A stretch of DNA of 64,000 nucleotides from an uncultured Planctomycetia bacterium (GTDB taxonomy: Bacteria; Omnitrophota; Gorgyraeia; CAYVEO01): contig CAYVEO010000001.1 in NCBI GenBank assembly GCA_964449965.1, forward strand, positions 15,189-79,188, read 5' to 3'. Of this stretch, positions 16,447-31,653 are shown piece after piece (the first letter of the stretch is position 1; every line of letters begins with the position of its first letter). Made by a program: the position numbers and the translations under genes. The notes under the pieces are model-generated. The model worked only from the letters and a program-made list of their open reading frames with translations. It did no database searches and had not been told where the DNA came from.

Positions 16447-17193
16447 TTACCCTGCCTTTGCAAGCACTTCATCAGGTATATCAAAGTTTGCATATACATT
16501 CTGGACATCTTCATGCTCTTCCAGAGCCTCAACTAACCCGAGTACCTGGCTCGCTAAACCCTTGTCCACCTTTACAGTGGTCTGGGGCAGCATTGTAATC
16601 TCAGCCATCTGATAGGGGACATTATTCTCATGGAGTTTGGTTTTTATCTTCTCAAGGTCCTTAGGGTCTGTAATAACCTCATAGGTATCACCTTCAGTCT
16701 TCAAATCCTCTGCGCCGCTTTCAAGGACTATGGACATCAATTTATCCTCATCCGCTGATTTCTTATCAATAAGGATAAAACCTTTTTTATGAAAGAGCCA
16801 GCTGACAGAACCCGTTCCTGCCAGGTTTCCCCCCCTCTTGGAAAATATGTTCCTTATCTCTGCCGAGGTCCTGTTCTTATTGTCTGTAGTAACCTCAACC
16901 AGGACAGCCACACCGCCATGGGCATAGCCTTCATATACCACTTCTTCATAAACAACACCAGGCAGTTCCCCTGTCCCTTTCTTGATTGCCCGCTCTATAT
17001 TTTCATTAGGCATATTTGCCTCTCTTGCCTTACTCAATATAGTCCGCAGCGTAGGATTTGAATCAGGACTGCCTCCTCCGTGCTTGGCAGCCACTGTTAT
17101 ATCTTTAGTTAATTTGGAAAATAGTTTACCTTTCTTTGCGTCTGCCAAACCTTTCTTATGCTTTATCCCAGCCCATTTAGAATGTCCTGACAT
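16447..17193 (-). CDS. yebC: YebC/PmpR family DNA-binding regulator
   Basis: MSGHSKWAGIKHKKG...GGGSPDSNPTLR signature. Heads the yebC-ruvC-ruvA-ruvB operon. Its first 7 codons and RBS lie in the 33-bp left att core. Confidence 0.9.
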   Translation of the reverse strand: MSGHSKWAGIKHKKGLADAKKGKLFSKLTKDITVAAKHGGGSPDSNPTLRTILSKAREANMPNENIERAIKKGTGELPGVVYEEVVYEGYAHGGVAVLVEVTTDNKNRTSAEIRNIFSKRGGNLAGTGSVSWLFHKKGFILIDKKSADEDKLMSIVLESGAEDLKTEGDTYEVITDPKDLEKIKTKLHENNVPYQMAEITMLPQTTVKVDKGLASQVLGLVEALEEHEDVQNVYANFDIPDEVLAKAG

Positions 17194-18311
17194 ATCATTG
17201 CTCCTCTATTAGCAATCTTTTCTAACCTGTTATTATTATATATAGTTCCGTGTTCTACCTTTTCATGGACTTTATCTCTGTTACCATCAAGTGTCCAAAA
17301 AGTGTCCACATCCCTGTATAGAAGCTCCACTGCTGAGTGTTTGTGGTTAGGTGAAAGGTGAGAATACCGAAGCGTCATATCCAGGCTCTTATGTCCCAAT
17401 AATTCTTTAACAGTCACTATATCAACCCCTGCCATAACCATATGCGAGGCAAAAGTGTGGCGACAATCGTGTAGATGGAAGTCTTTTATACCAACTCTCT
17501 TTACTGTTAGTCTAAATGCACGTGATAAACTATCCTTATGGATTCTATTGCCCTGTGTGTCACAGAAAACATAAGGACTATCAGTAGGACAGCGTAGCCT
17601 TAACGTCTCAAGTGCCTTTCTTGCTTCGGTATTCATTGGGATATGACGTTGTTCATAATTCTTTGTATCTCTTAAAGTGATTATATCACGAACAAAATCA
17701 ACATCATCCCATCTTAGGTTTAATATCTCGCTCCGTCTCATCCCCGTATTAAACGCCACTACTACAATCGGCTTCAGGGAATCAGAACAGGCATCTAATA
17801 ATGCTTTTATTGCACCTTTCTCTAAAAATCGTATCCGTCTGTTATTTACCTTAAACAACTTTACTTTCTTCACAGGATTCTCATTTGCTTTACCCCATTC
17901 AATCGCTTTTGTAAACATATGTTTCATACAAGCAATCTCACGGTTGACTGTTGCTGCGAGACGGCCATCACTAATACGTCTTGCTTTATAGTCTTCTATC
18001 ATTAGAGGGGTTATTTCATATAGATACCTATTCCCGAACAAAGGAATAAGACGTTTCAAAATACTTTCATCTTTATCAGAGGATTTCTTATTCTGTCGTG
18101 AATATCTCTCTACGTATTCCCTTGCCATGTCCCTAAAAAGTATCTTATGCTGTTTTTGGACATCTAAAAACCTGTTCTCCGCTATGCTGACCTTGATTTT
18201 ATTCAATACTGACTCTGCCTGGCGTCTGCTTGGCCCAACCTTTTGCCTGTGCCGTTTACCACGATACCAGTAATCTATAAAATAATTATCGCCTTTCTTA
18301 CGGACACCCAT
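17163..18311 (-). CDS. int: tyrosine recombinase / phage-type integrase
   Basis: MGVRKKGDNYFIDYWYRGKRHRQ N-terminus. Catalytic HDCRHTFAS...LLGH...LRYSHL with Tyr. The ORF continues about 50 aa past the catalytic Tyr, through the arm repeats and att core, into yebC. Confidence 0.85.
   Translation of the reverse strand: MGVRKKGDNYFIDYWYRGKRHRQKVGPSRRQAESVLNKIKVSIAENRFLDVQKQHKILFRDMAREYVERYSRQNKKSSDKDESILKRLIPLFGNRYLYEITPLMIEDYKARRISDGRLAATVNREIACMKHMFTKAIEWGKANENPVKKVKLFKVNNRRIRFLEKGAIKALLDACSDSLKPIVVVAFNTGMRRSEILNLRWDDVDFVRDIITLRDTKNYEQRHIPMNTEARKALETLRLRCPTDSPYVFCDTQGNRIHKDSLSRAFRLTVKRVGIKDFHLHDCRHTFASHMVMAGVDIVTVKELLGHKSLDMTLRYSHLSPNHKHSAVELLYRDVDTFWTLDGNRDKVHEKVEHGTIYNNNRLEKIANRGAMICQDILNGLG
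17173..17205. repeat. attL core (33-bp direct repeat containing the yebC RBS and start)
   Basis: Identical to 30031-30063. Confidence 0.8.
17291..17308. promoter_or_regulatory. integrase arm-type binding repeats, left (2 x GTGTCCA, 11-bp register)
   Basis: GTGTCCAAAAAGTGTCCA, 86 nt inside the element from the core. The same 18-mer recurs at 29905-29922. Confidence 0.55.
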
Positions 18312-18338
18312 TTTATCCCTCCACCTTAAATTATCATA

Positions 18339-18536
18339 CTAAAAAATCTTGTCAATGTCAAATGTTTTCTTCTTGTTTTCCTCAATCCACCTGTCAACAT
18401 CTTTTAAATCAAATTTTGTCAGTCGCCCCACCTTAACAAAAGGTATTCTCCGCTGGCATACCCACGCATACAAAGTATTCTTGCTTAATCCAGTATACTC
18501 AGCAACTTCATCTATGTTCAACAATCGTCTTTCCAT
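18339..18536 (-). CDS. xis: excisionase / AlpA-family HTH DNA-binding protein
   Basis: 65 aa. IDEVAEYTGLSKNTLYAWVCQRRIPFVKVGRLTKF is typical of the excisionase/AlpA HTH. Immediately upstream of int. Confidence 0.6.
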   Translation of the reverse strand: MERRLLNIDEVAEYTGLSKNTLYAWVCQRRIPFVKVGRLTKFDLKDVDRWIEENKKKTFDIDKIF

Positions 18537-18673
18537 AACCTAAAGGTCCTCTTTAACATTAGTCTCTTGTAAAAATTGCTTATCCCCATTGGCATTAGCC
18601 TCTACAATGCCTTTTCTTGCTGAGTTTCCTTGAATCAGCCTATACTTTTTCAAAGCATCAGGGTTACCCCTGC

Positions 18674-20944
18674 CTAATCTCTTTTGTCTAATGCTTCCTC
18701 TAATGCCTCTTGCTCCGCTTGCTCTTTGGTAAGTCCACCTTCATATTGCATAATCCCTGCCCGTTCATCAAAATCTTCTCGCTTAGTTTCTGATAAATTT
18801 TCAATATTTTTCACCCCACCTCCGTCATCACTATTTCTTTGGTCTTGAGAAATAGTGAGTTGAAGGGTGGGGTAAATAAGTATTCTCCTTTTATCGTTGG
18901 GGTCTGCCTCTTGGGTTATTAGTCCTGCCGTCTCAAGCATCGGCAAAATCTGTTGGCGGAGTTGGTTCGTGTCCAACATCCTGCCATACACCTCGTAATG
19001 TTTTTGAAATATATCCTGACGTGATAGTCCGAGCACTTCCGTTGTCTCAACAAATCCTTCGTTGTAGTTCCCGTTTTTATCTTTCCACGCTTTCAGAATG
19101 ACTTCTTGATAGAGATTGTAGATGTATGGCGGCAGATTAAGTTCCTGACTGACCGAAATGGCATCCCAAATCCTGAATGCTTCCTCAATATCTTCTTCAT
19201 TAGCCGTAATGGTTGAACCGTTCCTTTCTCGCCACCAGAGGTTGAGTAGGGCGAGAGACTTTATGAGGGATATGAGGCGTTTTATGTCTCGCTGGTGTTT
19301 TGGCTTGAGTATCTTATTCTTGCTCAAAAATCGTTCCTCAACCCTCTTGAAATTAGCAATCTTTATCTCACGGATATTTTCAAGTTTTATCGCCCGTATC
19401 CTTTCCTTCAGCAACTTCCTTTCCGGGTTTTCTTCAAGCCAGATACTGTATCTCTCGGCGTCTGATTCTTTCCTCACGCTTTCCGAAACTCCTTCCCGTA
19501 TCTTTTCTTGACTAACCTCTGGACTCAAAAGCAAAAAACGTGTTGCCTCCTGCTCGGCAATCTGCAGTCCTGCAGTGCAGAAAATTACCGAAGGGAAACC
19601 TTTTATAATCACAGTTTTTGTCCGATTTCCGCCTTTTTGATTTTTATCAGTAATTTTGGAACGCATTTCTTTTTCATCGTGCGATAATAGCGAACGCAAT
19701 CGCTCCAAAAGAGCGGTGTGTGGCTGGTCTAAAAAGATAATTATTTTTCTCGATAAATCTACTGTGATGGTGTTTGTATCTTTATCGTATTCCCCTTGTT
19801 CGTGAAAAAATGCAGTAGGGGAACAATTACCCAATTTCATAACATCTTCGTTCGGAAATAGGTTAGAAATCTCCAGAGGGATATAGCTTTTGCCAGTTGA
19901 GGATGGAGCATTGTAACTGATGTTGAACTGAGCATTGTCCGTGTATGCTGAAAGTTCACAGAGAAAGGTTACAATCTTATTCTCCTCATCTGATTTTATG
20001 GTCAGTCCGAGTATCTTCACCAATTCTTGTGAGGAGAGCGGTTTAAATTGCGAGGTATCAATTCTTTCGGGATGCTCTTTCTCATACTTACCAAATAAAT
20101 CATCTGCATTGCCATTGAGCTTTACGAAATAGTCCGTTATATCTCCACCTTTACCGACTTCTTGAGGTAGGGTGGTAATGTATATCTTATTTTCAGTATT
20201 TTCCAGTAATTTTGCCGCCCGTTGGGCACCCTTCTTACCCGTTTCATCATTGTCAAAACAGATGTAAATTTTCCTACCTTTTCCTATCTTTTCGCACCAC
20301 TCTTGTTTAAAGGTCATCGCACCGTGCGTTGAGGTAATTGCAGGTATCCCTTTAGAAAGTAAAGACAACCTATCCAATTCGCCTTCGCAAAGCACGACCT
20401 TATCGGTATCAGATTGGAGTGTGTCCCATCCGTAAATCTGTGCCTCCACACCCTTAGGGTAAGTAATTTTTTTATCCCCTGCATTCGGGTCTTGTCTTAA
20501 CTTGAAAAACCGAAAAGCCCCATAAATATCCTTTATGGGTATAGTAATCCACCACTTGCCGTAAAATTTGCCCCAACCTAACTTGTATTCATCTATAACG
20601 GTGTCTATAATGCCTCTTGCATTCAAATACTGGCGGATGTGAGTTGGGAGTGCTTGATGACAAGTTTCAACTAATTCTGCATCAAACTTGGATTTTGGCT
20701 GTTTGTTCGTGGAATTTCCTAGATTGGGAATGTTGTCCCCGAAGTGCTTGGCGAGGGTAATAAGGTTACCTTTAGCCCCGCACTTCTTGCATTCGTATTG
20801 TCCCGTTTCTGCGTTAAAGTAGAGATGGGCTTCGGTGCCTCTACTGCCATCATCGCACCCATTAAAGAGGCAATGAGTTATTAGTTCGTTCCCTCTTTCA
20901 CGGAATGTAATACCTTCTCGTATCAGATATTCTTTAATTTCCAT
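18674..20944 (-). CDS. phage/plasmid primase: DnaG-type CHC2 zinc finger plus Toprim plus C-terminal P-loop NTPase domain
   Basis: HCLFNGCDDGSRGTEAHLYFNAETGQYECKKCGAKG zinc finger. Toprim VVLCEGELD...ICFDNDETGKKG. Walker A-like NAPSSTGKSY. 756 aa. Confidence 0.7.
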   Translation of the reverse strand: MEIKEYLIREGITFRERGNELITHCLFNGCDDGSRGTEAHLYFNAETGQYECKKCGAKGNLITLAKHFGDNIPNLGNSTNKQPKSKFDAELVETCHQALPTHIRQYLNARGIIDTVIDEYKLGWGKFYGKWWITIPIKDIYGAFRFFKLRQDPNAGDKKITYPKGVEAQIYGWDTLQSDTDKVVLCEGELDRLSLLSKGIPAITSTHGAMTFKQEWCEKIGKGRKIYICFDNDETGKKGAQRAAKLLENTENKIYITTLPQEVGKGGDITDYFVKLNGNADDLFGKYEKEHPERIDTSQFKPLSSQELVKILGLTIKSDEENKIVTFLCELSAYTDNAQFNISYNAPSSTGKSYIPLEISNLFPNEDVMKLGNCSPTAFFHEQGEYDKDTNTITVDLSRKIIIFLDQPHTALLERLRSLLSHDEKEMRSKITDKNQKGGNRTKTVIIKGFPSVIFCTAGLQIAEQEATRFLLLSPEVSQEKIREGVSESVRKESDAERYSIWLEENPERKLLKERIRAIKLENIREIKIANFKRVEERFLSKNKILKPKHQRDIKRLISLIKSLALLNLWWRERNGSTITANEEDIEEAFRIWDAISVSQELNLPPYIYNLYQEVILKAWKDKNGNYNEGFVETTEVLGLSRQDIFQKHYEVYGRMLDTNQLRQQILPMLETAGLITQEADPNDKRRILIYPTLQLTISQDQRNSDDGGGVKNIENLSETKREDFDERAGIMQYEGGLTKEQAEQEALEEALDKRD

Positions 20945-20974
20945 CGCAGCCTCCCAAACTATCTTTTGGAAATC

Positions 20975-21229
20975 CTACTCCGTTTGAGAGCGGGGGGGGC
21001 AGGGCGACGCACCTTCTCCCTGTTTAATCCCCTCCGCTCCCCCACGTGGTATTCTCCCTGTAAGCAAACTAATCATCTCGGCTTTGTGCCTGTTGGTGTA
21101 TCTACGCCAGTTATTGTGGTCCCGAAATGAAGGAGAAATCAATCCTCTTTTTTCAAAATGAATCACTGTCTTGGCAGAAATGCCCATTTCTGCTCCTAAT
21201 TTTCCGGCCGTGTAGAATAAACGTGGCAT
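20975..21229 (-). CDS. MerR-family HTH protein (small); C-terminal tail contains a C8 homopolymer
   Basis: LGAEMGISAKTVIHFEKRGLISPSFRDHNNWRRYT is a MerR-type HTH. The tail ...ASPCPPRSQTE is encoded across G8/C8 at 20992-20999. Confidence 0.45.
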   Translation of the reverse strand: MPRLFYTAGKLGAEMGISAKTVIHFEKRGLISPSFRDHNNWRRYTNRHKAEMISLLTGRIPRGGAEGIKQGEGASPCPPRSQTE

Positions 21230-21314
21230 ATTAACCTCCCAATATAGATAAGGATTATTGTAAAATCATAGGGAGATAGCGGACAAAACGGTAATTTTGA
21301 GGTTTTAACAGTGG

Positions 21315-21632
21315 TTAGACTTTGTTACGCTGGTAGGATTTTTGGCAGGCGTCACAACAAAATTGTCTTCTTTTATCTACTACTTTGAATTTTGGATGTG
21401 GTATCATTGAAAAACAGGCAGGGTTCTCACAAGGTCTACTGGTCTTATAGACAAGATCCAGGGCATCCTCATAGGGTATTGAGCGGGTTTTTGCTACCTT
21501 ATCGGCTGCTTTGTCTATAAGACTGTCTATCTTATAACCTCTTTTCAAATTATCCTCACAGACAATTTTTGCATTAGCCGGTAATTTCTTAATTCTTTTG
21601 CCATCTGTAGGTCTGAAATTCACTTCATACAC
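21315..21632 (-). CDS. hypothetical protein with C-terminal zinc ribbon (CENPAC...CCDAC)
   Basis: 105 aa. Cys pattern CX4C...CCX2C. No recognisable family. Confidence 0.35.
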   Translation of the reverse strand: MYEVNFRPTDGKRIKKLPANAKIVCEDNLKRGYKIDSLIDKAADKVAKTRSIPYEDALDLVYKTSRPCENPACFSMIPHPKFKVVDKRRQFCCDACQKSYQRNKV

Positions 21633-21637
21633 ATTAG

Positions 21638-22099
21638 TTAAAATTTTATAAATGCCTGCCTTTTCTTGCCAATGATTCTTCTTGTATATTCATACTGCGG
21701 TTTTTCTTCTTTCTGTTCCGTAAGAGGTAATGCTTCTGGGATGGTCTTTTCCTTAAATTGTAAAAGCACATCTTTAGGGACCTTGTTTTCTGGGCTAACC
21801 GTGACATCTTCTTGTAAATCAGGAATCTGGTATCTATGGTATGAATCCCATATTAGTCCATCATCGCCAGTATTTTCCCGCCAGTGAAAAACCTCATTCC
21901 ATTGGGTAACCCTCGGGCAGTTTACCTTACAGATTTTTTTATCGTATTTGGGACAACTATTACAAGGGATATTTTTTAGATACTGGTCAAGTTTCTGGCA
22001 GGATGTTCTTCTGCATTTGGTAGTGCCTTTGTATTGGCAAACAAGAGGGCAATTTTTGACTTCCTTTAGTGGCTTGAGTTTATCTTGTGCGTCTTTCAT
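21638..22099 (-). CDS. hypothetical Cys-rich protein (8 Cys in the first 61 aa; two probable Zn sites)
   Basis: CPLVC, CRRTSC, CNSC, CKVNC arrangement. Acidic, proline-rich C-terminal half. Confidence 0.35.
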   Translation of the reverse strand: MKDAQDKLKPLKEVKNCPLVCQYKGTTKCRRTSCQKLDQYLKNIPCNSCPKYDKKICKVNCPRVTQWNEVFHWRENTGDDGLIWDSYHRYQIPDLQEDVTVSPENKVPKDVLLQFKEKTIPEALPLTEQKEEKPQYEYTRRIIGKKRQAFIKF

Positions 22100-22161
22100 T
22101 GTGCGTCCTGTAATTAAAAATCACTGGTTAAGCTTCAACTAATGCTTTCGTCTTTAAGAGG

Positions 22162-22815
22162 TCACTTATTTGGAAAATCAGGTTTAGTCTCATGTTCACT
22201 ATTTCCACCATCGTTTTCACTAAACCACTCGCCCTCCGTCTTACCGGTCAGCCTCTTTATCTCCTTCCTGTTGCGGCGCTCTAGCGCCTTGAAAATGATG
22301 TCATCCAGTTGCCGTTCCTCTTCAGGTGTCATATACTGGGTCCAATTGTCATCCTTAACCCCCATCTCCTCCGGTGGCTTCTTTAAGAACCCGAGCTCCA
22401 TAAACTTCTCTATCATGTTAACCTCTATCTGCCATGCCAGGCGGTAATCCTCTTTAGCCATTGCTTTCTGCCTAAGATTACGAGCCTCGTGGAGGAACGT
22501 GCCGATTATCCTCTTGTAGTCAAGAACCGTAAGCATGTTCATGTAATTTCTTTCTATTGCCTCAAGGTCATACCTAATTGTCCTAACCGAGACATGCAGA
22601 CGGTTCGCAATCTCTTCCTGGCTCATTTCACCTTGCCGGTTGAAATAATCCACACAGACCTGCCTCATCTGTGGCGTCAAGTCTTCATAAGGGAGGACTC
22701 CGTCCTCCAAGTTCTTCAGGATTATCAAAGCGTTGTCTTCAATTATATCCATTTCGGCAAGTTTTTTGCCTGTTAGTTTAATCGCCAAGTTATCTGCTTT
22801 CAGTAAATTAGACAT
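22162..22815 (-). CDS. HTH protein with a sigma-70 region-4-like helix-turn-helix (element regulator, or small-terminase-like)
   Basis: LTPQMRQVCVDYFNRQGEMSQEEIANRLHVSVRTIRYDLEAI resembles a region 4.2 HTH, but it sits at residues 45-90 of a 217-aa protein. Confidence 0.45.
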   Translation of the reverse strand: MSNLLKADNLAIKLTGKKLAEMDIIEDNALIILKNLEDGVLPYEDLTPQMRQVCVDYFNRQGEMSQEEIANRLHVSVRTIRYDLEAIERNYMNMLTVLDYKRIIGTFLHEARNLRQKAMAKEDYRLAWQIEVNMIEKFMELGFLKKPPEEMGVKDDNWTQYMTPEEERQLDDIIFKALERRNRKEIKRLTGKTEGEWFSENDGGNSEHETKPDFPNK

Positions 22816-22893
22816 CGTTTCTGTGCGTTGCCTATTTTTGCCTATAAACGAACACGTGTTCGCCCTCTACCGACTCGTCTTTTCCTTACTTGC

Positions 22894-23136
22894 TCATCCA
22901 CCATAATTACCCCACATAAGTTCTTTCTTTCTCGGCTCAAACCTTATCCCGTTGTCGCCCTTGAATGGCTTCTTATGGTCGTGCACTTCACCAAAAATAT
23001 CAAGCGGTATCTGGTCTGGGAACGCCTTGCAAGAATGCCATGTGCTGTCGTCAAAATGTTCGCACTTCATGCATTGATTTTCTCCGAAAGTATCAAGGAT
23101 ATATTCCTTCGCATAATTCTTGTCTTTTTCATTCAT
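22894..23136 (-). CDS. hypothetical small protein (CxxC...HxC)
   Basis: 80 aa, same strand as its neighbours. The 129-aa ORF on the other strand is the less likely of the two. Confidence 0.3.
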   Translation of the reverse strand: MNEKDKNYAKEYILDTFGENQCMKCEHFDDSTWHSCKAFPDQIPLDIFGEVHDHKKPFKGDNGIRFEPRKKELMWGNYGG

Positions 23137-23253
23137 TTTTTTATCACCTTTCCATATGAACTATATCAGGGTCATCATCCCTTTCATAATCCCAACCCGG
23201 CGGGGCAAAATCCCTGAAAATTTTCAGTTTTCTAAGTCAATATTTCCCCTATC

Positions 23254-26200
23254 TTAATTTACCAACCCAACCACAGGCTTTAATATAAATCTCACCATTG
23301 ACCTTAAGTATTCATGTCTTGCGATAAAGTCTGCAATAGGTGGGCTCATCCTGTAATAGAACGCCACTAATCTCTTCCCAATCGGGTTAGTCAATAGATG
23401 TGTATCCCTGAATCGGCTCAATGTGACTACATCACTTGCCATTGGTGTTCCATAAGCAGCAGTTGCTATAAAACAGCCTCCGCCCCCACCACCTCCACCA
23501 CCAGACGAACCTTGAGGTGTAGCACTTGACTGAGCACCAGTGGAATAGTTCGGCACTTCATCATAGGCAAAGATTGTGTAGTAACAGGCTGTCCCATTGG
23601 TTAATCCTGTATCTGTCTTGCTCGTCCCTGTCCCTGAATATACCTCTGTCCCGTCTGTTACACTTGCAGGATACCCGCCTGTCTTTCTGATTACCTTTAC
23701 CCCTGCAAAATCTGTATCAGCCGGGTTCGTCCATGTTAGGCTTACCTGTCCATCTCCTGCTGTTGCACTCAATCCTGATGGTGCTGACGGCGCTGCAGTA
23801 TCCTCTGAACCTATTGCAAAGTCACTTAAGTGTCCTACTTTTGCCTTTACCTGCTTATTGGTCGTGTCTACTTCTGTATCAGAAATCTTCTCCCACTTGC
23901 CTGTTGTTGTGTTATACCACCAGAGTTTGAGGTCTTTCTCTGGTATATTCGTCCCATCTACTATACCATTATTATCTGTATCATCGTATGGAATGGTTAC
24001 TGTCACTGATTTCTCCAACGTTGGGTTACCTTCTAATTCTATCTTCCTGAATTTGTCAAGTGATGAATTTGCACCCTCAGTTGTGTTTTGTGGATTCGCT
24101 GGAAGGGCTGTTACTGTAAGTGTAGCATCCTGGGTTAAAGTTCCATATGGTATCTCTACTGATGTGTAGTCCTCCATACTTGATTCTGTAGTCTCATCTT
24201 TGTCTATCTTCTGCTTCTTCTCCCGATTACCACTGTTATCCACACCATCATTTACATCTGGATTCGTCTGAGTTACTGTTACTGTGATGATTTCAGAGTT
24301 GACTGTATTGTCGCTTGTATCTTTCCCTACTGCACGAAGTTGATAGTCACCTTCAGTTAATCCTGTCACATTCCACGTTGTGCTAAAAAATGAATTCGGC
24401 GGTGGGAACATCTCGCTTCCTATGTCTGTCCAGTCTGTGGTTACACCTTTATATTGAAACTTCACGCTCTTGGTAAGATTCCCCGGGGCTGTATTGGCAT
24501 GTAATGTTACATCTGTCCCCCATATACTATCTCCATTCTTCGGCACTGAAATCCAGACCTTTAGGTTAGACGGACTACTTACTGTAAGTGCCACAGAATC
24601 TGTATCTGTTAATCCGTTACTATCCACTACCATTACTGTGGGTGAGTATGAACCCGGCTTGTCATAGACATGGGTTGTTGTTCCTGTTGTTGATGCCCAG
24701 TCATATTCTCCATCTCCTTCATAATCCCAGATATATGCTATGTAACTGCCACTTCCTCCTATTGCTGACCCGGTTAAAGTGACTATTTCTCCTACTGTTA
24801 CTGAAGAAGGACTGCAATTCGCATCGGCAACGAGTGGATTTGTATTGGTTGGATTGGATACAGATATAGTAACACTTGCAGTCCCACTTAATCCATCATT
24901 ATCCGTTACTCTTAGAGTAGCAGTATAACTACCTCCCTGCCCATAGATGTAGCTGACGCTCCCAGAACTTGTTGAGACAAAATCATAAGTGCCATTTCCA
25001 TCAAAATCCATCTCATACTGTTTGATAGTCCCATCTGTATCTGTGCCACTGTAGGTAAATGTTACTGTAAGCGGTGTAGTGCCACTTGTAGATGACGCTG
25101 AGATAGAAGCAGTTGGAGATTTTTTATCTACAGGTGGTGAACTTACAGTTATGGTAACTGAGGCAGTTGCTGTTAGACTATCATTATCGGTAACCCTGAA
25201 ATTTGCTGTCCATGTCCCCGCAGACGAATAGGTTTTAACAGTATTTCCACCTGTATTTGATGACCAATCATAGGTTCCATTCCCATCAAAGTCCCATTCG
25301 TATTTGGTAATACTTCCATCATCTGTCGCACTCCCTGTAAAACTTACTGCGAGTGGTGCAGTTCCACTTGTAGGTGTAGCACTGGCTGTGGCAGTTGGTG
25401 GGTTACTCATTGGCTTGGCACTTACTTGAGATGAATAACTACTCTCATTTGAAGCGAAGTCAACTGCTGTAACCACGTAATAATACGTAGTTCCATTTGT
25501 TAAACCACTATCATTATATTGACTCGCAGTAACTGTGCTCGTATTGATTTTGTTATATCCACTACCACTTGCAGAACTCCGATAAACATTATAACCTGAT
25601 AAATCAGATTCTGTATTATTATTCCAGTCAAGACTTACTGTAGTATTTCCAGCACTGGATGTTAATCCAGTAGGCACTAATGGTGGTATGCTATCCTGGG
25701 GAGTAACACTAACTTCTGAAGAGGCAGTGCCTTCATTTTTTTGAATATCTACAGCCTTTACCACATAATAATAAGTGACACCGTTAGTGAGCCCTGTATC
25801 CTGGTATTGGCTATAAACCTGGGTTGCTGTATTGATTTGACTATACGTTCCGCCACTTAACAGGCTTCGGTATATATTATACCCGGCGAGGTCTGCCTCA
25901 GTATTATCATTCCAGTCAAGACTTACAGTCTCGTTCCCTGAAGTGGCAGTAAGCCCGGTTGGCGAGTTTGGAGGTAAATCCACAGTAGCAGAAGTTGTTA
26001 CGACTTCCAAATAAGGCACTAAATTCCCCCTATAATCAATGGGGACACTGTTATGGTATTCAGTTGAGGCAAAACCCGTAACTAACCACCATGATGAGGT
26101 CTTACTAATGCCATTTGGAACCAATGCCAACGTGAGATAGTTGGAGTTGTCTTTTGGTCCGTTGACTGTGAAACTTCCGGGAGAGAACTCCCACTTATAC

Positions 26201-27147
26201 CAGCCCTGATAATCATTCTGGTATTCAGTGGCGAGAAGGTTACTATAGCCCACCTGATTGTCCCATGTCATCCCGTCAAGTGGGTCCGGTGAGTCTATCA
26301 CCGTCCAACTCCAGTAGGTGCCTTCCCTCCACTGGTCGTTTGATGCATAGTAAACGCCAGTCTTTACGTCTCCTGTCACGGCATCCCCCTGGGCAAAATT
26401 ATGGTCACTATAAGCCCAGAGTTTGTAGCCAACAACTGCCTCGCCATCTGCCAACCCCTGAACAAAGTCGGGGTTGATGGTGAGGTTAAACCCCAAGTAA
26501 GAAATATGCTTAGTCCTGTATCCGTCGTTTGCGATAGTAGTGTGGAGCAAATAGTTTATACCCTGGTTGGTCTTCGTCTGGTTCGCCCACTGCGTCCCAG
26601 TAGTCACACCAGTATCCTGTTCGCATTCAACCCGATAAACTTTACTCTCCAGATTAACCGTAACTGTAACAGTAACTGTCCCCCAGTTGTTTCCGTAGTC
26701 CGTGTCATTAAACGCAAGCGTAAACAACCCGCTCCCGCTCACCGTCCCTGTCATGCCAGTCCCTACGTAGAACCATCTTCCGTCCCCGAATCTACCTATA
26801 AGCGCCGCCACTGGCATCCCGGCGCCTGGATACCCACTTGCTATGTTCTCGTGCGGGTTGCCTCCGGGTCCAAATGTAAGGTCAGAAGAGTTACCCCAAC
26901 TCCCTTCCGCCATGACCGTTATCCTGTCGCCATCCGTCACCTCTATCTTGGTGTCAAGCGGGACAGACACAAAGTCTGGGGCGCCACCCGCCACGTAGTA
27001 TATCTGGCTCGCCGAGTTCCTATCAGCATGAACCTGGTATGTCCCCTGTATTTCCACTGCTTGAGCCTCAACCACCCATAATAAGACCGCAACCGCTATG
27101 TAACGGTGCATATATTTACTTCTACACATCTTCAGCCACCTCCTCAT
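23254..27147 (-). CDS. giant secreted surface protein: N-terminal lectin-like domain, multiple PKD and fibronectin-III domains, poly-Gly linker and conserved CFIATAAYG C-terminal module
   Basis: Signal peptide (AVAVLLWVVEAQA). PKD units (ATPTSGTAPLAVSFTGSATDDGSITKYEWDFDGNGTYD; TYSSAGTWTANFRVTDNDSL). FN3 units (PSGLSATAGDGQVSLTWTNPADTDFAGVKVIRK). C-terminus GGGGGGGGGCFIATAAYGTPMASDVVTLSRFRDTHLL...YYRMSPPIADFIARHE. Confidence 0.7.
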   Translation of the reverse strand: MRRWLKMCRSKYMHRYIAVAVLLWVVEAQAVEIQGTYQVHADRNSASQIYYVAGGAPDFVSVPLDTKIEVTDGDRITVMAEGSWGNSSDLTFGPGGNPHENIASGYPGAGMPVAALIGRFGDGRWFYVGTGMTGTVSGSGLFTLAFNDTDYGNNWGTVTVTVTVNLESKVYRVECEQDTGVTTGTQWANQTKTNQGINYLLHTTIANDGYRTKHISYLGFNLTINPDFVQGLADGEAVVGYKLWAYSDHNFAQGDAVTGDVKTGVYYASNDQWREGTYWSWTVIDSPDPLDGMTWDNQVGYSNLLATEYQNDYQGWYKWEFSPGSFTVNGPKDNSNYLTLALVPNGISKTSSWWLVTGFASTEYHNSVPIDYRGNLVPYLEVVTTSATVDLPPNSPTGLTATSGNETVSLDWNDNTEADLAGYNIYRSLLSGGTYSQINTATQVYSQYQDTGLTNGVTYYYVVKAVDIQKNEGTASSEVSVTPQDSIPPLVPTGLTSSAGNTTVSLDWNNNTESDLSGYNVYRSSASGSGYNKINTSTVTASQYNDSGLTNGTTYYYVVTAVDFASNESSYSSQVSAKPMSNPPTATASATPTSGTAPLAVSFTGSATDDGSITKYEWDFDGNGTYDWSSNTGGNTVKTYSSAGTWTANFRVTDNDSLTATASVTITVSSPPVDKKSPTASISASSTSGTTPLTVTFTYSGTDTDGTIKQYEMDFDGNGTYDFVSTSSGSVSYIYGQGGSYTATLRVTDNDGLSGTASVTISVSNPTNTNPLVADANCSPSSVTVGEIVTLTGSAIGGSGSYIAYIWDYEGDGEYDWASTTGTTTHVYDKPGSYSPTVMVVDSNGLTDTDSVALTVSSPSNLKVWISVPKNGDSIWGTDVTLHANTAPGNLTKSVKFQYKGVTTDWTDIGSEMFPPPNSFFSTTWNVTGLTEGDYQLRAVGKDTSDNTVNSEIITVTVTQTNPDVNDGVDNSGNREKKQKIDKDETTESSMEDYTSVEIPYGTLTQDATLTVTALPANPQNTTEGANSSLDKFRKIELEGNPTLEKSVTVTIPYDDTDNNGIVDGTNIPEKDLKLWWYNTTTGKWEKISDTEVDTTNKQVKAKVGHLSDFAIGSEDTAAPSAPSGLSATAGDGQVSLTWTNPADTDFAGVKVIRKTGGYPASVTDGTEVYSGTGTSKTDTGLTNGTACYYTIFAYDEVPNYSTGAQSSATPQGSSGGGGGGGGGCFIATAAYGTPMASDVVTLSRFRDTHLLTNPIGKRLVAFYYRMSPPIADFIARHEYLRSMVRFILKPVVGLVN

Positions 27148-27183
27148 TATGAATAGGTCAATACCTGACCTACAACCACCATT

Positions 27184-28449
27184 TTACTCTTGTTTTTGCC
27201 ATAGTTCAAGTTCTTTTTCTTGAACGGGTATTTCTTTCTTTACTTCTTGACGTAATACAAATCTTTTATCTAAAATGTCCTGCACCGTTACAAGTTCAAT
27301 CTCTATGCCTTCTTTTTTCACTCTCGCCACTTCTTCATAAGCCCCCTTACCAAAGCTGAACGCTACGATGTAACCTTTCATGTTGTTGGTCTGTGTTCTA
27401 TAATGCCGTCTTAAAGCGGTCTCAAAATTGTCTATAACATTCCGTCCCACTCCTTCTGATTGTTTAACCTGTATCGGGGCATGTTCCATAAAACTAAGTC
27501 CGTCTATACCCATATCACCCGATTTACGAGGAGCCGGAGTTCCGTGCATTTCAGTTACCACCCAATATTGGAATTCAAAGGGTTTAAACCTTCTTAAGTC
27601 CTCTACTCTCTTGGGCATGCCAATAAGGTCAAACTCTTCCTCACCCACACCTATTTTCTTAAGACGATTTTTAACTAAAGCAACTGCCGAAGGAGAAATA
27701 TCTATACCTATCCAGTGCCTTCCCAACATTTCTGCTACTGCTAAGGCTGTCCCGCATCCACAGAAAGCGTCTAATACAATATCACCTTTATTACTACTTG
27801 CTTTGATTATTCTTTCTAAAAGTGCTTCGGGTTTTTGAGTGGGATAACCAAGACGTTCTTTTGCCTGACTATTTATAAATGGAATTTCCCAGACGTCCTC
27901 AGGGACTTTTCCTAATGGATGCGTTTTTGTTATTCGTCCAAAAGAAATAGTTTTGTGTTTCGCTTGTCTAACCGTGCCCTCTTTATAAGGAGTTCGGACT
28001 GCATCTAAATTAAAATTATGAGCATCTGCTTTCTTTGAATAGAAAAAGATAGTATCATGTTTTTTCTTAAATCTATCTCTAACAGTCCCCGCAGGGTCGT
28101 GATACCACCATATAATCTCATTCAAGAGATTTTTATATCCAAACACCTCATCACACATCACCTTTAGGTAATGCCCAGCGTGCCAATCACAATGCAAGTA
28201 AAAACTACCTGTAGGTTTCAATACCCTATGTAATTCAATTACTCTTTGCTTCATCCAGTCAATATAAACATTTATTCCGCCCTCCCATCTATCCTCAAAA
28301 CTCCTTATCTCCGCCTCGTCACCCCAGATAATCTCATAATGACGGTTGCTGAAAAATGGTGGGTCAATATAGATAAGGTCAATGCTCTCTTTCTCCATAG
28401 TAGCCAGGATTTCTAAGTTATCGCCACAATATAGTTTGTTCTTAAACAA
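27184..28449 (-). CDS. beta-class N6A/N4C DNA methyltransferase fused to a C-terminal Mrr-like (PD-(D/E)XK) nuclease domain; TTG start
   Basis: Motif IV IDLIYIDPPFFSN precedes motif I VLDAFCGCGTALAVA, which is the beta-class order. C-terminal about 130 aa have KSGDMGIDG...IQVKQ, the Mrr_cat-type D-(G)GIDG/QxK pattern. Confidence 0.75.
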   Translation of the reverse strand: MFKNKLYCGDNLEILATMEKESIDLIYIDPPFFSNRHYEIIWGDEAEIRSFEDRWEGGINVYIDWMKQRVIELHRVLKPTGSFYLHCDWHAGHYLKVMCDEVFGYKNLLNEIIWWYHDPAGTVRDRFKKKHDTIFFYSKKADAHNFNLDAVRTPYKEGTVRQAKHKTISFGRITKTHPLGKVPEDVWEIPFINSQAKERLGYPTQKPEALLERIIKASSNKGDIVLDAFCGCGTALAVAEMLGRHWIGIDISPSAVALVKNRLKKIGVGEEEFDLIGMPKRVEDLRRFKPFEFQYWVVTEMHGTPAPRKSGDMGIDGLSFMEHAPIQVKQSEGVGRNVIDNFETALRRHYRTQTNNMKGYIVAFSFGKGAYEEVARVKKEGIEIELVTVQDILDKRFVLRQEVKKEIPVQEKELELWQKQE

Positions 28450-28635
28450 TTTAGCCCGTCCTCATCACCTCGCCAAAGGATTTTATATCCTGGAATTAAC
28501 CAGGACAGATGAAAACGGGCTATGCCCGCTTCACGCTACCTTTGGCGAGGTTTTTGTGTTTAAAGCGTGTGTCAGTTCTACTATTTTTCTAAAATTTTAC
28601 ATTTCCATTATCACCTTATTTAACTTACCCTTATA

Positions 28636-29157
28636 CTACGGATGAAATCCTATCCGCCTCTTTGGTTTTTCTGCTGTAGTTGGCGGTGTCATAAGTTGAC
28701 GAATCGCTTCAAAGATTGTTTTGATTTCCTCATCATGCTTTTCTATCTTTCTTTCAAGTTGCTCTAACTTATGGGCAAGTTCTTTATGGGTTGAGAGCAT
28801 CTCCTTGAGTCTTACAAATACACGCATGATAGCAATATTTACCTGTATCGCCTGCTTGCCATTGAGGACACTTGAAAGCATTGCCACACCCTGTTCTGTA
28901 AAGGCATAAGGGTTAGCGCCTCCAAAATAAGATTTAGATGGTATGCCATTTTGGCATACCAGTATTTTAACTTCTTTATCATTAAGAATAAACATAAAGT
29001 CTTCAGGAAATCTCTCAATATTTCTTTTCACTTGTCTTTTTAACTGAGCCGTTCCAACTCTGTAAAGAGAGGCTAAATCTCTATCCAGCATAACCTTTTG
29101 CCCTCTAATCAAGAATATCTTTCTCTCTATTATTTCTTGTGGAATTAAATTCGGCAT
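28636..29157 (-). CDS. ORF6N-domain protein (KilA-N/Bro-N-like DNA-binding, phage antirepressor family)
   Basis: IRGQKVMLDRDLASLYRVGTAQLKRQVKRNIERFPEDFMFIL matches the ORF6N signature. Coiled-coil C-terminus. Confidence 0.6.
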   Translation of the reverse strand: MPNLIPQEIIERKIFLIRGQKVMLDRDLASLYRVGTAQLKRQVKRNIERFPEDFMFILNDKEVKILVCQNGIPSKSYFGGANPYAFTEQGVAMLSSVLNGKQAIQVNIAIMRVFVRLKEMLSTHKELAHKLEQLERKIEKHDEEIKTIFEAIRQLMTPPTTAEKPKRRIGFHP

Positions 29158-29185
29158 TTGCGGTTCACCACTCTCTAAAATAAAA

Positions 29186-29211
29186 CAGAGGGTTGAACGA
29201 GCAACCCTCTG
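29186..29211 (-). terminator. Rho-independent terminator downstream of the toxin-antitoxin-like operon
   Basis: Perfect 10-bp stem CAGAGGGTTG/CAACCCTCTG with a 6-nt loop, then TTTTATTTTAG on the minus strand. Confidence 0.6.
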
Positions 29212-29376
29212 GAGTTAATTATCCCATCTTTGTTCTTTGCAAAAATGGGGAGTTCATGAAAGATTCCCTCTTACCATCTCATATCTCTTATATTTCAATG
29301 TAGCCATCTTTTGTTTTACAATCACTATATAATTTCCCTTTGGAAAGAAAACTTTCAAAACCTAAAAGCAGTGTCT

Positions 29377-29574
29377 TCAACTTGCACGTCTGGCAAGCAA
29401 TTCCCGAACCTTAGGAACTAACTTGTTGGGAATCTCCATGAATGTTTGTGAAGTGTCCTCGTAAGCAGCCTCGTCTTCGGCAAGGGCTTCTTCTTCCGAT
29501 TGGCTTTCGTAGTACATGAGAACCTTCCGTACTCGTTCTTCATTCCAACCAGGTGGAAACTTACTTTGTTTCAT
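29377..29574 (-). CDS. small acidic protein, putative antitoxin partner
   Basis: 65 aa. Start overlaps the upstream gene's stop by 4 nt. Acidic (EEEALAEDEAAYED). Confidence 0.35.
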   Translation of the reverse strand: MKQSKFPPGWNEERVRKVLMYYESQSEEEALAEDEAAYEDTSQTFMEIPNKLVPKVRELLARRAS

Positions 29575-29858
29575 ATTTTCCCTTTCCGGCGACGTCGCCG
29601 CCGATATGCAATCAATGGTTTCCCTGTCAATTCATATCCAGTAATCACGAAAACGCTATCTGGTTCTGGGCCCGGCACATAAATAATCCGAAGATACCTT
29701 CCAACCTGAGTCTGTCCAATAGCCACTCTTGAATCTTCTGCACCAGGACGGTCCTCGCCAGAATGCCGGAGGATATTCTCAACCTCGGACTCTCTCACAT
29801 TGTGATTGTATATGTGTGGTAGCCCTGTGTTATGGTCAATGTAGTATCGTATTTTCAA
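29571..29858 (-). CDS. putative toxin (DUF4258-like small basic protein)
   Basis: 95 aa with an Arg/Lys-rich tail. 4-nt overlap with the downstream small ORF, which is typical type II toxin-antitoxin architecture. Lies just inside the right end of the element. Confidence 0.35.
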   Translation of the reverse strand: MKIRYYIDHNTGLPHIYNHNVRESEVENILRHSGEDRPGAEDSRVAIGQTQVGRYLRIIYVPGPEPDSVFVITGYELTGKPLIAYRRRRRRKGKI

Positions 29859-29903
29859 AGAATATCTTCCTTATAAACCGGCCCCATACATATCATCCAC
29901 CTG

Positions 29904-29932
29904 ATGTCCAAAAAGTGTCCACTTTGTGTCCA
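29904..29932. promoter_or_regulatory. integrase arm-type binding repeats, right (3 x (G)TGTCCA, 11-bp register)
   Basis: ATGTCCAAAAAGTGTCCACTTTGTGTCCA, 98 nt inside the element from the right core. Confidence 0.55.
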
Positions 29933-30030
29933 AAATCATACGAATTCATATAAATTGGTATAAGTGCTATTTTGCCTTTTTATCGTCGGTAAAACCATTC
30001 TGAGACGGAGGTTCCGACTTGTCATGTTTT

Positions 30031-30063
30031 CCATTTAGAATGTCCTGACATATCATTGCTCCT
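30031..30063. repeat. attR core (33-bp direct repeat) with the remnant yebC start
   Basis: Identical to 17173-17205. Remnant ORF ATG TCA GGA CAT TCT AAA TGG AAA ACA TGA at 30022-30051 (minus). Confidence 0.8.
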
Positions 30064-30158
30064 TCTTTAAATTAATTATACACCATAAATAAGATTTTGC
30101 AAGAAAATTCCTGACTTCGCCTATACGAGTTTCTTTGAATACATCCTCCCATTCGGTA

Positions 30159-31650: not shown

Positions 31651-31653
31651 ACA

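What the first reader, a model, noticed from the sequence alone, without database searches (positions are those of the whole stretch)
17173..30063. 12.9-kb integrative element inserted into the 5' end of yebC, with perfect 33-bp att direct repeats
The 33-mer CCATTTAGAATGTCCTGACATATCATTGCTCCT occurs exactly twice, at 17173-17205 and 30031-30063, in direct orientation. It contains the RBS and first 7 codons of yebC. The left copy is continuous with the full yebC-ruvCAB operon. The right copy is followed by a different sequence and gives only a 9-codon remnant (MSGHSKWKT*). Between the copies lie a tyrosine integrase, AlpA-type excisionase, DnaG/Toprim primase with a P-loop domain, small HTH and zinc proteins, a 1297-aa surface protein, an MTase-nuclease fusion, an ORF6N protein and a toxin-antitoxin-like pair. 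That is the gene content of a P4-like or integrative island. The element carries its own copy of the target gene's 5' end and so restores yebC on integration. A protein-coding 5' end is an uncommon target compared with tRNA 3' ends. The cargo region (20975-29858) is where novel defence or surface functions would sit.
Basis: partly seen in the sequence, partly recalled or inferred. Interest (0 to 1): 0.8.

Follow-up and report, generated by a model that had tools for sequence, protein, structure and literature searches.

The report
Integrative island at yebC gene start

Summary
The 33-mer occurs exactly twice, at 17173-17205 and 30031-30063, with none expected by chance. It holds the yebC ribosome-binding site and codons 1-7. 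Four contigs from related populations (L082, L083, L114, L115) carry promoter, 33-mer and yebC with nothing in between. The attB predicted from the window matches L115 with one mismatch in about 110 nt.

The 12,858-bp unit is a mosaic integrative island:
- a tyrosine integrase, an HTH_17 excisionase and an attP with phased GGACAC arm sites in both arms;
- a Toprim/P-loop replicase that is 66-78% identical to proteins in other phyla;
- cargo: a CFI-box-CTERM surface protein, a methyltransferase fused to an Mrr-like domain, and an ORF6N protein.

No capsid, packaging or conjugation gene was found.

A 60%-identical integrase (L086) sits at yebC in a distant host. Other close relatives of the integrase sit at the 5' halves of tRNA genes. 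Of 68 long integrase tails, 26 read through a tRNA gene, all in the forward direction.

Precedents exist: dusA 5'-end islands, the roughly 4% of tRNA-gene islands that leave a 5' fragment, and tycheposons. yebC appears to be a previously unreported target. Verdict: a new member of a known kind, of moderate interest.

The parts
17173..17205 (-). attL core: the 33-nt identity block (RBS plus yebC codons 1-7), continuous with the full yebC gene
30031..30063 (-). attR core: the second exact copy, preceded by the native yebC promoter and followed by element DNA
17206..30063 (-). The mobile unit, 12,858 bp including one core copy. All of its genes are on the minus strand. Its tetranucleotide usage is foreign to the host although its GC content is the same.
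16447..17193 (-). yebC, the target gene, restored at attL. Its first 31 nt overlap the end of the integrase ORF.
17163..18311 (-). Tyrosine integrase, 382 aa as integrated. The ORF runs through the core into yebC. In the predicted circle it would be 400 aa.
17291..17309 (-). P-arm candidate arm-type site: two GGACAC half-sites 11 nt apart, embedded in the integrase codons for DTFWT
   Evidence: (D14)
29904..29931 (-). P'-arm candidate arm-type sites: three phased GGACA(C/T) half-sites in non-coding DNA. Of these, 18 nt are identical to the P-arm copy.
   Evidence: (D14)
29967..29989 (-). Conserved P'-arm block CCGACGATAAAAAGGCAAAATAG, shared with the tRNA-Gln element in L084. Conservation is at the DNA level, not the protein level.
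   Evidence: reading-frame check
18339..18536 (-). HTH_17 (AlpA/excisionase-type) protein, the candidate directionality factor. It is 63-70% identical to the gene next to the related integrases.
18333..18361 (-). Promoter-like site TTGACA-17-TATGAT just upstream of int. It is the likeliest source of transcripts reading into yebC-ruvCAB.
18674..20944 (-). Replication protein of 756 aa: zinc-ribbon-like N-terminus, Toprim primase domain and P-loop NTPase
20975..21229 (-). MerR-type HTH protein of 84 aa
21315..22099 (-). Two cysteine-rich ORFs (105 and 153 aa) with no significant family
22162..22815 (-). 217-aa protein with an HTH similar to DeoR and sigma-70 region 4
22894..23136 (-). 80-aa ORF (phrog_33375, unknown function)
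23254..27147 (-). 1297-aa secreted or surface protein with PKD repeats and a C-terminal CFI-box-CTERM domain
27184..28449 (-). Beta-class N6/N4 DNA methyltransferase fused to an Mrr_cat-like C-terminal domain
28636..29157 (-). ORF6N (KilA-N-like) protein. It matches the untested defence candidate PDC-S05 and PHROG anti-repressor families.
29186..29211 (-). Terminator-like hairpin (10 pairs, followed by a T-run) downstream of the small gene pair
29377..29858 (-). Overlapping 95-aa and 65-aa gene pair, the first genes downstream of attR. A toxin-antitoxin nature is unverified.
30022..30051 (-). Displaced yebC start, now a 9-codon ORF MSGHSKWKT*
30075..30102 (-). Native yebC promoter-like site TTGCAA-16-TATAAT, conserved at the empty sites. 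It now points into the element.

Best explanation
This is a site-specific integrative island of 12,858 bp in an Omnitrophota-like groundwater bacterium. A heterobivalent tyrosine integrase recombined the element's attP with an attB that covers the ribosome-binding site and codons 1-7 of yebC. The attP consists of the 33-nt core flanked by arms that carry phased GGACAC sites. The element carries its own copy of that 33-nt stretch, so yebC is rebuilt at attL. The original promoter and start are left 12.9 kb upstream at attR as a 9-codon stub.

Shown here: the repeats, the four empty sites, the gene content, the conserved arm motifs, and a second yebC-specific integrase in another host.

Inferred:
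(a) Excision by the integrase plus the HTH_17 protein gives a 12,858-bp circle.
(b) The circle is replicated by the Toprim/P-loop protein.
(c) After integration, yebC-ruvCAB is transcribed from element promoters. No terminator-like site lies between the promoter-like site upstream of int (P_int) and yebC. The displaced yebC promoter instead reads into the small gene pair at the right end, up to the hairpin at 29186-29211.
(d) The target was chosen because the 21 nt encoding MSGHSKW is the most conserved DNA at the start of yebC, much as tRNA genes are conserved targets.

The island belongs to an integrase clade that always places itself upstream of, and co-oriented with, its target and restores the target's 5' part. 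Most members use tRNA genes. This lineage switched to yebC. How the island moves between cells is unknown, because it has no conjugation or capsid genes.
For: Exact 33-nt direct repeats, none expected by chance. Four empty sites, with attB equal to the outer arms plus the core. The predicted attB differs from L115 by 1 nt in about 110. Intact integrase with the R...HxxR...H...Y residues, and an Arm-DNA-bind_2-like N-terminus with weak support (E=0.0014). An 18-nt motif identical in both arms. The same motif at the same place in three related elements, and the P' arms of the window and L084 are 80% identical in non-coding DNA. L086 has an integrase 60% identical, again arranged HTH_17-int-yebC-ruvC-ruvA with the same 31-nt overlap, in a host whose YebC is 51-56% identical. 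L084 has a 38-nt repeat equal to tRNA-Gln positions 1-38 flanking a 10.3-kb element. Of 68 long integrase tails, 26 read through a tRNA gene, all forward from about position 1. Tetranucleotide distance of the element from the host is 0.207, against 0.074 +/- 0.006 for host segments of the same size. Promoter and terminator scan. The ATG..TGG stretch is the most conserved 21-nt window among 80 yebC genes.
Against: No excised circle or attP junction was found: the 33-mer scans returned only attB contigs in metagenome contigs and nothing in viral contigs. Activity is therefore inferred, not shown. Promoter and terminator calls are consensus matches only, and the promoter count is barely above the shuffles (38 against 29.3 +/- 5.2). 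The exact crossover point within the 33 nt is unknown. GC content does not differ from the host (0.421 against 0.425). The arm-binding domain hit is below Pfam's threshold. The closest reference genomes share only 68% YebC identity, so the empty sites come from unbinned metagenome contigs, not from named sister genomes.
Confidence: 0.85

Rival explanations
1. It is a helper-dependent phage satellite (P4-like, PICI-like or a PICI-type tycheposon). It would excise, replicate with its primase and be packaged in the capsids of an unknown helper phage.
For: It has a satellite-like size (12.9 kb) and an int-xis-primase layout. The ORF6N protein matches PHROG anti-repressor families (6e-26). A related integrase in L085 lies next to a Terminase_2 gene. 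Tycheposons with the same modules are found in capsids and vesicles (bioRxiv 10.1101/2020.12.28.424599).
Against: No PHROG or Pfam hit to a small terminase, capsid, Sid/Psu/Delta, Cpm/Ppi or any packaging function was found in any ORF. The primase is absent from the viral contigs. Its close homologs sit in islands with serine recombinases and restriction-modification cargo, not in phage-like contexts. No helper phage is known.
Confidence: 0.2
2. It is a regulatory switch ('active lysogeny' type). Integration and excision would toggle expression of yebC-ruvCAB by swapping its promoter, as SpyCI elements do for mutL (comparison recalled from memory).
For: The native promoter-like site is separated from yebC by 12.9 kb and now faces the element's small gene pair. 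yebC lies directly downstream of int with no terminator-like site, and its RBS lies inside the int ORF tail. The same geometry recurs across the whole integrase clade.
Against: The element rebuilds an intact RBS and start, which argues for preserving expression rather than switching it. There are no expression data. The promoter predictions are weak. dusA islands with the same geometry showed no detectable phenotype (PMC4482086).
Confidence: 0.12
3. It is a fixed, no longer mobile remnant. The empty sites would then reflect ancestral absence, with no current excision.
For: No attP junction or circular contig was found in the collections that could be searched.
Against: The 33-nt repeats and the 18-nt arm motifs are perfect. 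The int and xis genes are intact. L115 is an empty site in a lineage that shares the window's private aminotransferase deletion, so gain or loss is very recent.
Confidence: 0.1
4. It is an assembly artefact: a chimeric join at a short shared 33-mer between the host chromosome and an unrelated contig.
For: A 33-nt repeat is close to common assembler k-mer sizes. The Logan contig L001 breaks exactly at the edge of the core. One NCBI assembly has the integrase on a short contig that ends near attL.
Against: An independent assembly from another sample and host (L086) shows the same int-to-yebC junction within one contig. Both junctions have the structure expected of attL and attR, with matching arm sites. 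A chimera would not carry the RBS and 7 codons of yebC at the end of an integrase gene by accident.
Confidence: 0.03

Closest known systems
dusA-associated integrase islands and prophages (Farrugia et al. 2015, PMC4482086)
   Same: A tyrosine integrase targets the 5' end of a conserved housekeeping protein-coding gene. The element replaces that 5' end with its own copy, so the gene stays intact, and it supplies new upstream sequence with promoter-like sites.
   Different: The target gene differs (yebC, not dusA), as does the host phylum. Membership of the DAI integrase clade was not tested. Here the identity block also includes the RBS, and the integrase ORF reads across it.
tRNA/tmRNA-gene islands that leave a 5' fragment (Islander database, PMC4383910: 159 of 3919 islands)
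   Same: The nearest relatives of this integrase show exactly this arrangement. In L084, tRNA-Gln positions 1-38 are duplicated, and the island lies upstream of and co-oriented with the restored gene.
   Different: The window's target is a protein-coding gene, not a tRNA gene.
Tycheposons of Prochlorococcus (Hackl et al., bioRxiv 10.1101/2020.12.28.424599)
   Same: Small modular islands built from a tyrosine or large serine recombinase, an excisionase, a primase/helicase replication module and cargo. Here too the same replicase is found with either recombinase type.
   Different: Tycheposons sit at tRNA or tmRNA genes in cyanobacteria. No sequence relationship was tested. No evidence of vesicle or capsid transport exists for this element.
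Mx8 IntP and SSV-type integrases, whose ORF extends across attP (cited in PMC4383910)
   Same: The integrase ORF crosses the attP core, so integration changes its C-terminus (400 aa down to 382 aa).
   Different: Only the tail beyond the catalytic domain is affected. That tail is not conserved as protein: in L084 it is a translated tRNA and would stop 7 codons after the core in the circle. No functional role is implied. SSV-type splitting of the catalytic gene does not occur.
P4-like satellites
   Same: An integrase, an AlpA-type HTH protein and a large protein combining zinc ribbon, Toprim and P-loop.
   Different: There are no Psu, Sid, Delta or cos-related functions. The primase scores far below the NCBIfam PRK07078 cut-off (37.8 against 1014 bits). 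The target is not the 3' end of a tRNA gene.

Membership tests
Tyrosine-integrase site-specific integrative island | Encodes a tyrosine recombinase with a complete catalytic domain | tested here: met
   Pfam Phage_integrase 1.9e-39 covering profile positions 2-171 of 172; phrog_1 1.2e-82; the R, HxxR, H and Y motifs are visible in the sequence
Tyrosine-integrase site-specific integrative island | Flanked by direct repeats (attL and attR) that share the core with attB | tested here: met
   33-nt exact repeats; alignment A3 with four attB sequences
Tyrosine-integrase site-specific integrative island | The uninterrupted target site exists in related genomes | tested here: met
   L082, L083, L114 and L115
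Tyrosine-integrase site-specific integrative island | Excised circular form with an attP junction | not testable with these tools
   No reads are available. The 33-mer scans gave only attB contigs in metagenome contigs and nothing in viral contigs.
Heterobivalent (lambda-type) integrase with arm-type sites | N-terminal arm-binding domain, and repeated arm sites in both attP arms | tested here: inconclusive
   Arm-DNA-bind_2 E=0.0014, 19 bits against a cut-off of 22. Phased GGACAC repeats lie in both arms and are conserved in three related elements. Binding was not tested.
5'-end-restoring islands (dusA-type; 5'-fragment tRNA-gene islands) | The element lies upstream of the restored target and carries the target's 5' portion; the displaced fragment is a 5' fragment | tested here: met
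   The displaced stub MSGHSKWKT* is at attR and the full gene at attL. The relative L084 shows the same with tRNA-Gln positions 1-38.
dusA-associated integrase (DAI) family | Integration within dusA | tested here: not met
   The target is yebC
P4-like satellite | Capsid-size and helper-manipulation genes (sid, psu, delta), cos, and a P4 alpha-type primase-helicase | tested here: not met
   No such PHROG or Pfam hits in any ORF. PRK07078 scores 37.8 bits against a cut-off of 1014.
PICI / capsid-forming satellite | Packaging or capsid-remodelling genes (terS, cpm/ppi, capsid genes) | tested here: not met
   No hits. Distant or novel versions cannot be excluded.
Integrative conjugative or mobilizable element | Relaxase, coupling protein or type IV secretion genes, or an oriT | tested here: not met
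   No relaxase or type IV secretion family appears among the Pfam or NCBIfam hits for any ORF. oriT was not searched.
Type II toxin-antitoxin pair (29377-29858) | Both partners match known toxin and antitoxin families | tested here: inconclusive
   Only DUF4258 at E=0.03 for the 95-aa ORF, and nothing for the 65-aa ORF in Pfam, NCBIfam or PADLOC. The 4-nt overlap of the two small ORFs is the only positive sign.
Methyltransferase-endonuclease fusion (Mrr_cat C-terminal domain) | C-terminal PD-(D/E)xK domain with catalytic residues | tested here: met
   The window protein itself gives no Mrr_cat hit. However, 17 of 31 full-length homologs (62-81% identical) do, with a best E-value of 3.4e-8. D312, D316 and Q327-x-K329 are invariant. 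The model shows an alpha-beta-beta-beta-alpha-beta order in residues 290-390. Nuclease activity was not tested.
CFI-box-CTERM surface proteins | C-terminal CFI-box-CTERM domain above the NCBIfam cut-off | tested here: met
   NF041770 2e-28, 98 bits against a cut-off of 40, residues 1225-1293

The most novel reading that the evidence does not exclude
This integrase clade may have evolved a systematic promoter-swap mode of integration. It always inserts between the promoter and the body of a highly conserved gene (tRNA genes, and here yebC). The host's strong constitutive promoter is captured to drive the element's right-end genes. The host gene, here the whole yebC-ruvCAB operon for translation rescue and Holliday-junction resolution, becomes dependent on the integrase promoter and on arm sites that double as -35-like boxes. 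Host gene expression would then report and depend on the state of the element.
Probability: 0.12. Interest if true: 0.6.

Novelty: new member of a known kind. Interest (0 to 1): 0.35.

Why it matters
The finding adds yebC to the list of protein-coding integration targets. yebC encodes a conserved translation factor and heads the ruvCAB operon. No paper in the searchable library combines yebC with attB or integration site and integrase. The case is precisely mapped, with empty sites, in Omnitrophota-like groundwater bacteria whose mobile elements are barely described. It also shows that a large integrase clade keeps a fixed geometry, upstream of the target and restoring its 5' part, while switching from tRNA genes to a protein-coding gene. 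This is useful for island-finding software, which mostly expects 3' fragments. It is also useful for sourcing integrases with defined att sites: the core, the arms and four natural attB sequences are given here. The near-identical replicase shared with Patescibacteria and Thermodesulfovibrionia islands points to replication modules that move between phyla in aquifers.

Tried and rejected
1. Conserved integrase C-terminal tail across attP (Mx8-like regulation). Rejected. The tail after TFWT(L/P) is not conserved. In L084 it is a translated tRNA and would stop 7 codons after the core in the circle. The conserved P' block is therefore a DNA-level feature.

2. Upstream synteny or this integrase next to yebC in 80 reference genomes. 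No reference genome has the integrase or the hexapeptide/aspDH/nadA genes beside yebC. The best YebC identity is only 68%, so this collection could not provide an empty site.

3. Exact-protein look-ups for the hexapeptide protein, P0001 and P0121. None is on record.

4. Viral contigs. There was no 33-mer, no primase relative, no close integrase relative and no arm-motif-plus-yebC pattern. The 80 distant integrase loci had a tRNA gene downstream in only 3 cases, all co-oriented, which is too few to add weight.

5. Similarity between the P' arm and yebC codons downstream of the core. It is weak (shuffle p about 0.009) and is absent for L084 against its own tRNA, so it is left unexplained.

6. 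Fold search of the methyltransferase model. The methyltransferase domain dominated the matches, so nothing was learned about the C-terminal domain.

7. GC content as a sign of foreign origin. There is no difference from the host. Tetranucleotide usage does differ.

8. Rfam. The only match in the window is the tRNA-Ser at 56244-56337.


Full report
OBSERVATION

The 33-mer occurs exactly twice in direct orientation, at 17173-17205 and 30031-30063. No further copy appears even with three mismatches allowed, and none was found in 100 shuffles (family D2). All genes in the region lie on the minus strand. On that strand the repeat reads AGGAGCAATGAT ATG TCA GGA CAT TCT AAA TGG, that is a Shine-Dalgarno sequence plus MSGHSKW.

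The left copy continues into a 248-aa YebC (TACO1_YebC_N 6.7e-33; Transcrip_reg 2.2e-58), followed by ruvC, ruvA and ruvB. The right copy continues as AAA ACA TGA, giving MSGHSKWKT*. Upstream of the right copy lies a promoter-like TTGCAA-16-TATAAT at 30102-30075.

THE DECISIVE TEST: EMPTY SITES

A scan of public metagenome contigs for the 33-mer returned two contigs from a groundwater assembly (ERZ1292645).
- L082 carries ruvB-ruvA-ruvC-yebC at 95% nucleotide identity to the window. The core follows, and then 18 nt of the window's right flank, with no element.
- L083 carries the yebC start, the core and about 90 nt of the right flank. It then has an aminotransferase gene and hexapeptide, aspartate dehydrogenase and nadA genes that are 93-97% identical in protein to those at 30159-32625.

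Two further contigs holding YebC proteins from the same 90% cluster are also empty sites: L114 (SRR22388267) and L115 (ERZ4903185). In the six-way alignment, attB equals the outer arm of attR, then the core, then the outer arm of attL (A3). The attB predicted by deleting the element from the window differs from L115 at one position in about 110 nt. L115 also shares a private deletion of the aminotransferase gene with the window (see below). It therefore comes from a very close lineage without the island, and the gain or loss is recent.

The element has the same GC content as the host (0.421 against 0.425). Its tetranucleotide distance from the rest of the window is 0.207, against 0.074 +/- 0.006 (maximum 0.085) for 26 host segments of equal length.

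THE INTEGRATION MODULE

The integrase (17163-18311) is a complete tyrosine recombinase (Phage_integrase 1.9e-39; phrog_1 1.2e-82). Its N-terminus has weak similarity to an arm-binding domain (Arm-DNA-bind_2, E=0.0014, below threshold). Next to it lies an HTH_17/AlpA-type gene (1.3e-16; phrog_66 'excisionase and transcriptional regulator' 1.6e-12).

A second exact direct repeat, TGTCCAAAAAGTGTCCAC, lies at 17292-17309 and 29905-29922 (D14). On the gene strand these are GGACAC half-sites spaced 11 nt apart. There are two in the P arm, 86 nt from the core, and three in the P' arm, about 110 nt from the core.

The P-arm copy lies inside the integrase codons for D-T-F-W-T. The identical DNA motif occupies the same position in three elements whose integrases are only 55-62% identical (L084, L085 with one change, L086). 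In the window and in L084 it also occurs in the non-coding P' arm. Those two P' arms are 80% identical over 170 columns, including a block CCGACGAnAAAAAGGnAAAATAG. I read these as arm-type protein-binding sites. That reading is an inference, because binding was not tested.

The integrase ORF runs through the core and stops 28 nt inside yebC. In the predicted circle it would be 400 aa rather than 382. The tail is not conserved as protein: in L084 it is a translated tRNA and would end 7 codons after the core. I therefore attach no function to it.

RELATIVES AND TARGET CHOICE

The integrase has more than 3000 homologs at E<=1e-20.
- The closest informative homolog, P0002 (60% identical, also 382 aa), lies on L086. 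The arrangement there is HTH_17-int-yebC-ruvC-ruvA, and its ORF again overlaps the yebC start by 31 nt. The host's YebC is only 51-56% identical to the window's. A yebC-specific sub-lineage therefore exists.
- P0003 (62% identical) lies on L084, at the end of a 10.3-kb element bounded by a 38-nt exact repeat that equals positions 1-38 of tRNA-Gln. The intact tRNA gene lies downstream of int and co-oriented with it.
- P0004 (55% identical) lies on L085 and reads into tRNA-Lys in the same way.

Among 68 homologs with long C-terminal tails, 26 tails are translations of tRNA genes. All 26 read in the forward orientation, starting at about tRNA position 1, and none reads in reverse.

The clade thus keeps one geometry: the island lies upstream of its target, co-oriented with it, and restores the target's 5' part. 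This is the minority arrangement for tRNA-gene islands, seen in 159 of 3919 islands in Islander (PMC4383910).

In 80 diverse yebC genes, the 21 nt from ATG to TGG form the most conserved 21-nt window of the first 150 nt (0.85 identity to the window against a mean of 0.62; 67 of 80 encode MSGHSKW). This offers a plain reason for the target choice, the same one usually given for tRNA genes.

CONSEQUENCES FOR EXPRESSION (INFERRED)

The native yebC promoter now faces the 9-codon stub and the overlapping 95-aa and 65-aa gene pair (29858-29377). A terminator-like hairpin follows at 29211-29186. A strong promoter-like site, TTGACA-17-TATGAT, precedes int at 18361-18333. No terminator-like site lies between int and yebC. 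yebC-ruvCAB is therefore probably read from element promoters. These are consensus matches only, and promoter-like sites are barely enriched over shuffles.

THE REST OF THE ELEMENT

Replicase. The 756-aa protein has a Toprim primase domain (Toprim_2 1.1e-12; phrog_239 and phrog_47 primase or primase/helicase; PDB DnaG and T7 primase hits). It also has a P-loop: Walker A (APSSxGKSY) and hhhhDQPH are invariant in 40 homologs. It has 2282 homologs. The best are 66-78% identical over the full length and are labelled Patescibacteria (several classes), Thermodesulfovibrionia and others. Their precomputed Pfam hits include PF27228, which is named after a protein with an MTBMA_p locus tag; from memory, that tag belongs to a Methanothermobacter plasmid.

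In three contexts examined, the primase lies in islands that use a large serine recombinase. It is flanked there by a conserved DUF5659/65-aa/about 175-aa/about 208-aa set that is absent from the window. The window's element shares only int and xis with L084-L086, and only the primase with L108-L113. It is a mosaic of an integration module and a replication module.

Cargo.
- A 1297-aa protein with PKD repeats and a CFI-box-CTERM domain (NF041770 2e-28).
- A beta-class N6/N4 methyltransferase (1.3e-59; related to M.RsrI, CcrM and MboIIA). The C-terminal domain of its full-length homologs matches Mrr_cat in 17 of 31 cases, and D...QxK is invariant.
- An ORF6N protein that matches the untested PADLOC candidate PDC-S05 (1.2e-58) and PHROG anti-repressors.

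The toxin-antitoxin label for the small gene pair is not supported at threshold. No capsid, terminase, relaxase or secretion gene was detected in any ORF.

COMPARISON WITH KNOWN SYSTEMS

In mechanism, the closest precedent is the dusA-associated integrase islands. They insert in the 5' end of dusA, replace it with their own copy and provide upstream promoter-like sequence (PMC4482086). In lineage, the element belongs with 5'-fragment tRNA-gene islands. In architecture, it resembles tycheposons, which combine a tyrosine or serine recombinase, an excisionase, a primase/helicase and cargo. It is not a P4-like satellite by any defining feature tested. Integrase ORFs crossing attP are known from Mx8 and SSV (PMC4383910).

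No paper in the searchable library links yebC with attB or integration site and integrase. The target therefore appears to be unreported, within the limits of that library.

VERDICT

The feature is a well-delimited, probably still mobile integrative island with a new target site in a poorly studied phylum. It is a new member of a known kind, and I score interest at about 0.35. The host is Omnitrophota-like: the best YebC matches are 60-68% identical to Omnitrophota MAGs, while the source proteins are labelled 'Planctomycetes bacterium' MAG in NCBI.

The most novel reading still open is that the clade's fixed geometry is a deliberate promoter swap, placing yebC-ruvCAB under element control. I give it a probability of about 0.12.

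Noticed in passing
window 30121-30162 (minus strand): A 13-codon ORF, MIPNGRMYSKKLV*, lies here. It is the remnant of a 440-aa class-III aminotransferase gene, keeping the first 3 codons and about the last 9. The gene is intact at this position in L083 (287-1609) and L114. L115 carries the same deletion as the window.
   Followed up: partly
window 18674-20944; L108-L113: The Toprim/P-loop replicase is 66-78% identical over its full length to proteins labelled Patescibacteria, Thermodesulfovibrionia and others. In three contexts examined it sits in islands with a large serine recombinase and type III restriction-modification or reverse-transcriptase cargo. This conservation across phyla is unusually high.
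   Followed up: partly
L087-L107 (IMG/VR contigs): The exact 17-mer GGACACTTTTTGGACAC occurs in 21 viral contigs. In about nine of them it lies just 3' of a distantly related integrase gene (22-32% identical). The site may therefore be shared far beyond the close clade.
   Followed up: partly
L086 1702-2443: The yebC downstream of the second yebC-specific integrase is hit in two different reading frames (1702-2337 and 2282-2443). This is either a frameshifted gene or an error in the Logan contig.
   Followed up: no
L001 position 1 (Logan SRR4343430): This contig has yebC-ruvC-ruvA 100% identical to the window. It starts exactly at the first base of the 33-nt core, which suggests a branch in that sample's assembly graph at the att core.
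   Followed up: no
window 29967-30001 against 17122-17157: The P' arm just inside attR resembles yebC codons about 13-24 (26 of 35 aligned positions; shuffle p about 0.009). It could be chance, or a trace of how the yebC site was adopted.
   Followed up: partly
L053 17446-17652: A contig labelled as a Bathyarchaeia MAG carries a bacterial-type yebC-ruvC. About 7 kb away it has a CFI-box-CTERM domain 55% identical to the C-terminus of the window's 1297-aa protein. The contig is possibly mis-binned.
   Followed up: no
window 56241-56337 (minus strand): This tRNA-Ser(GCT) is the only tRNA and the only Rfam match in the 64-kb window. No paralog of the integrase lies next to it or anywhere else in the window.
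   Followed up: yes
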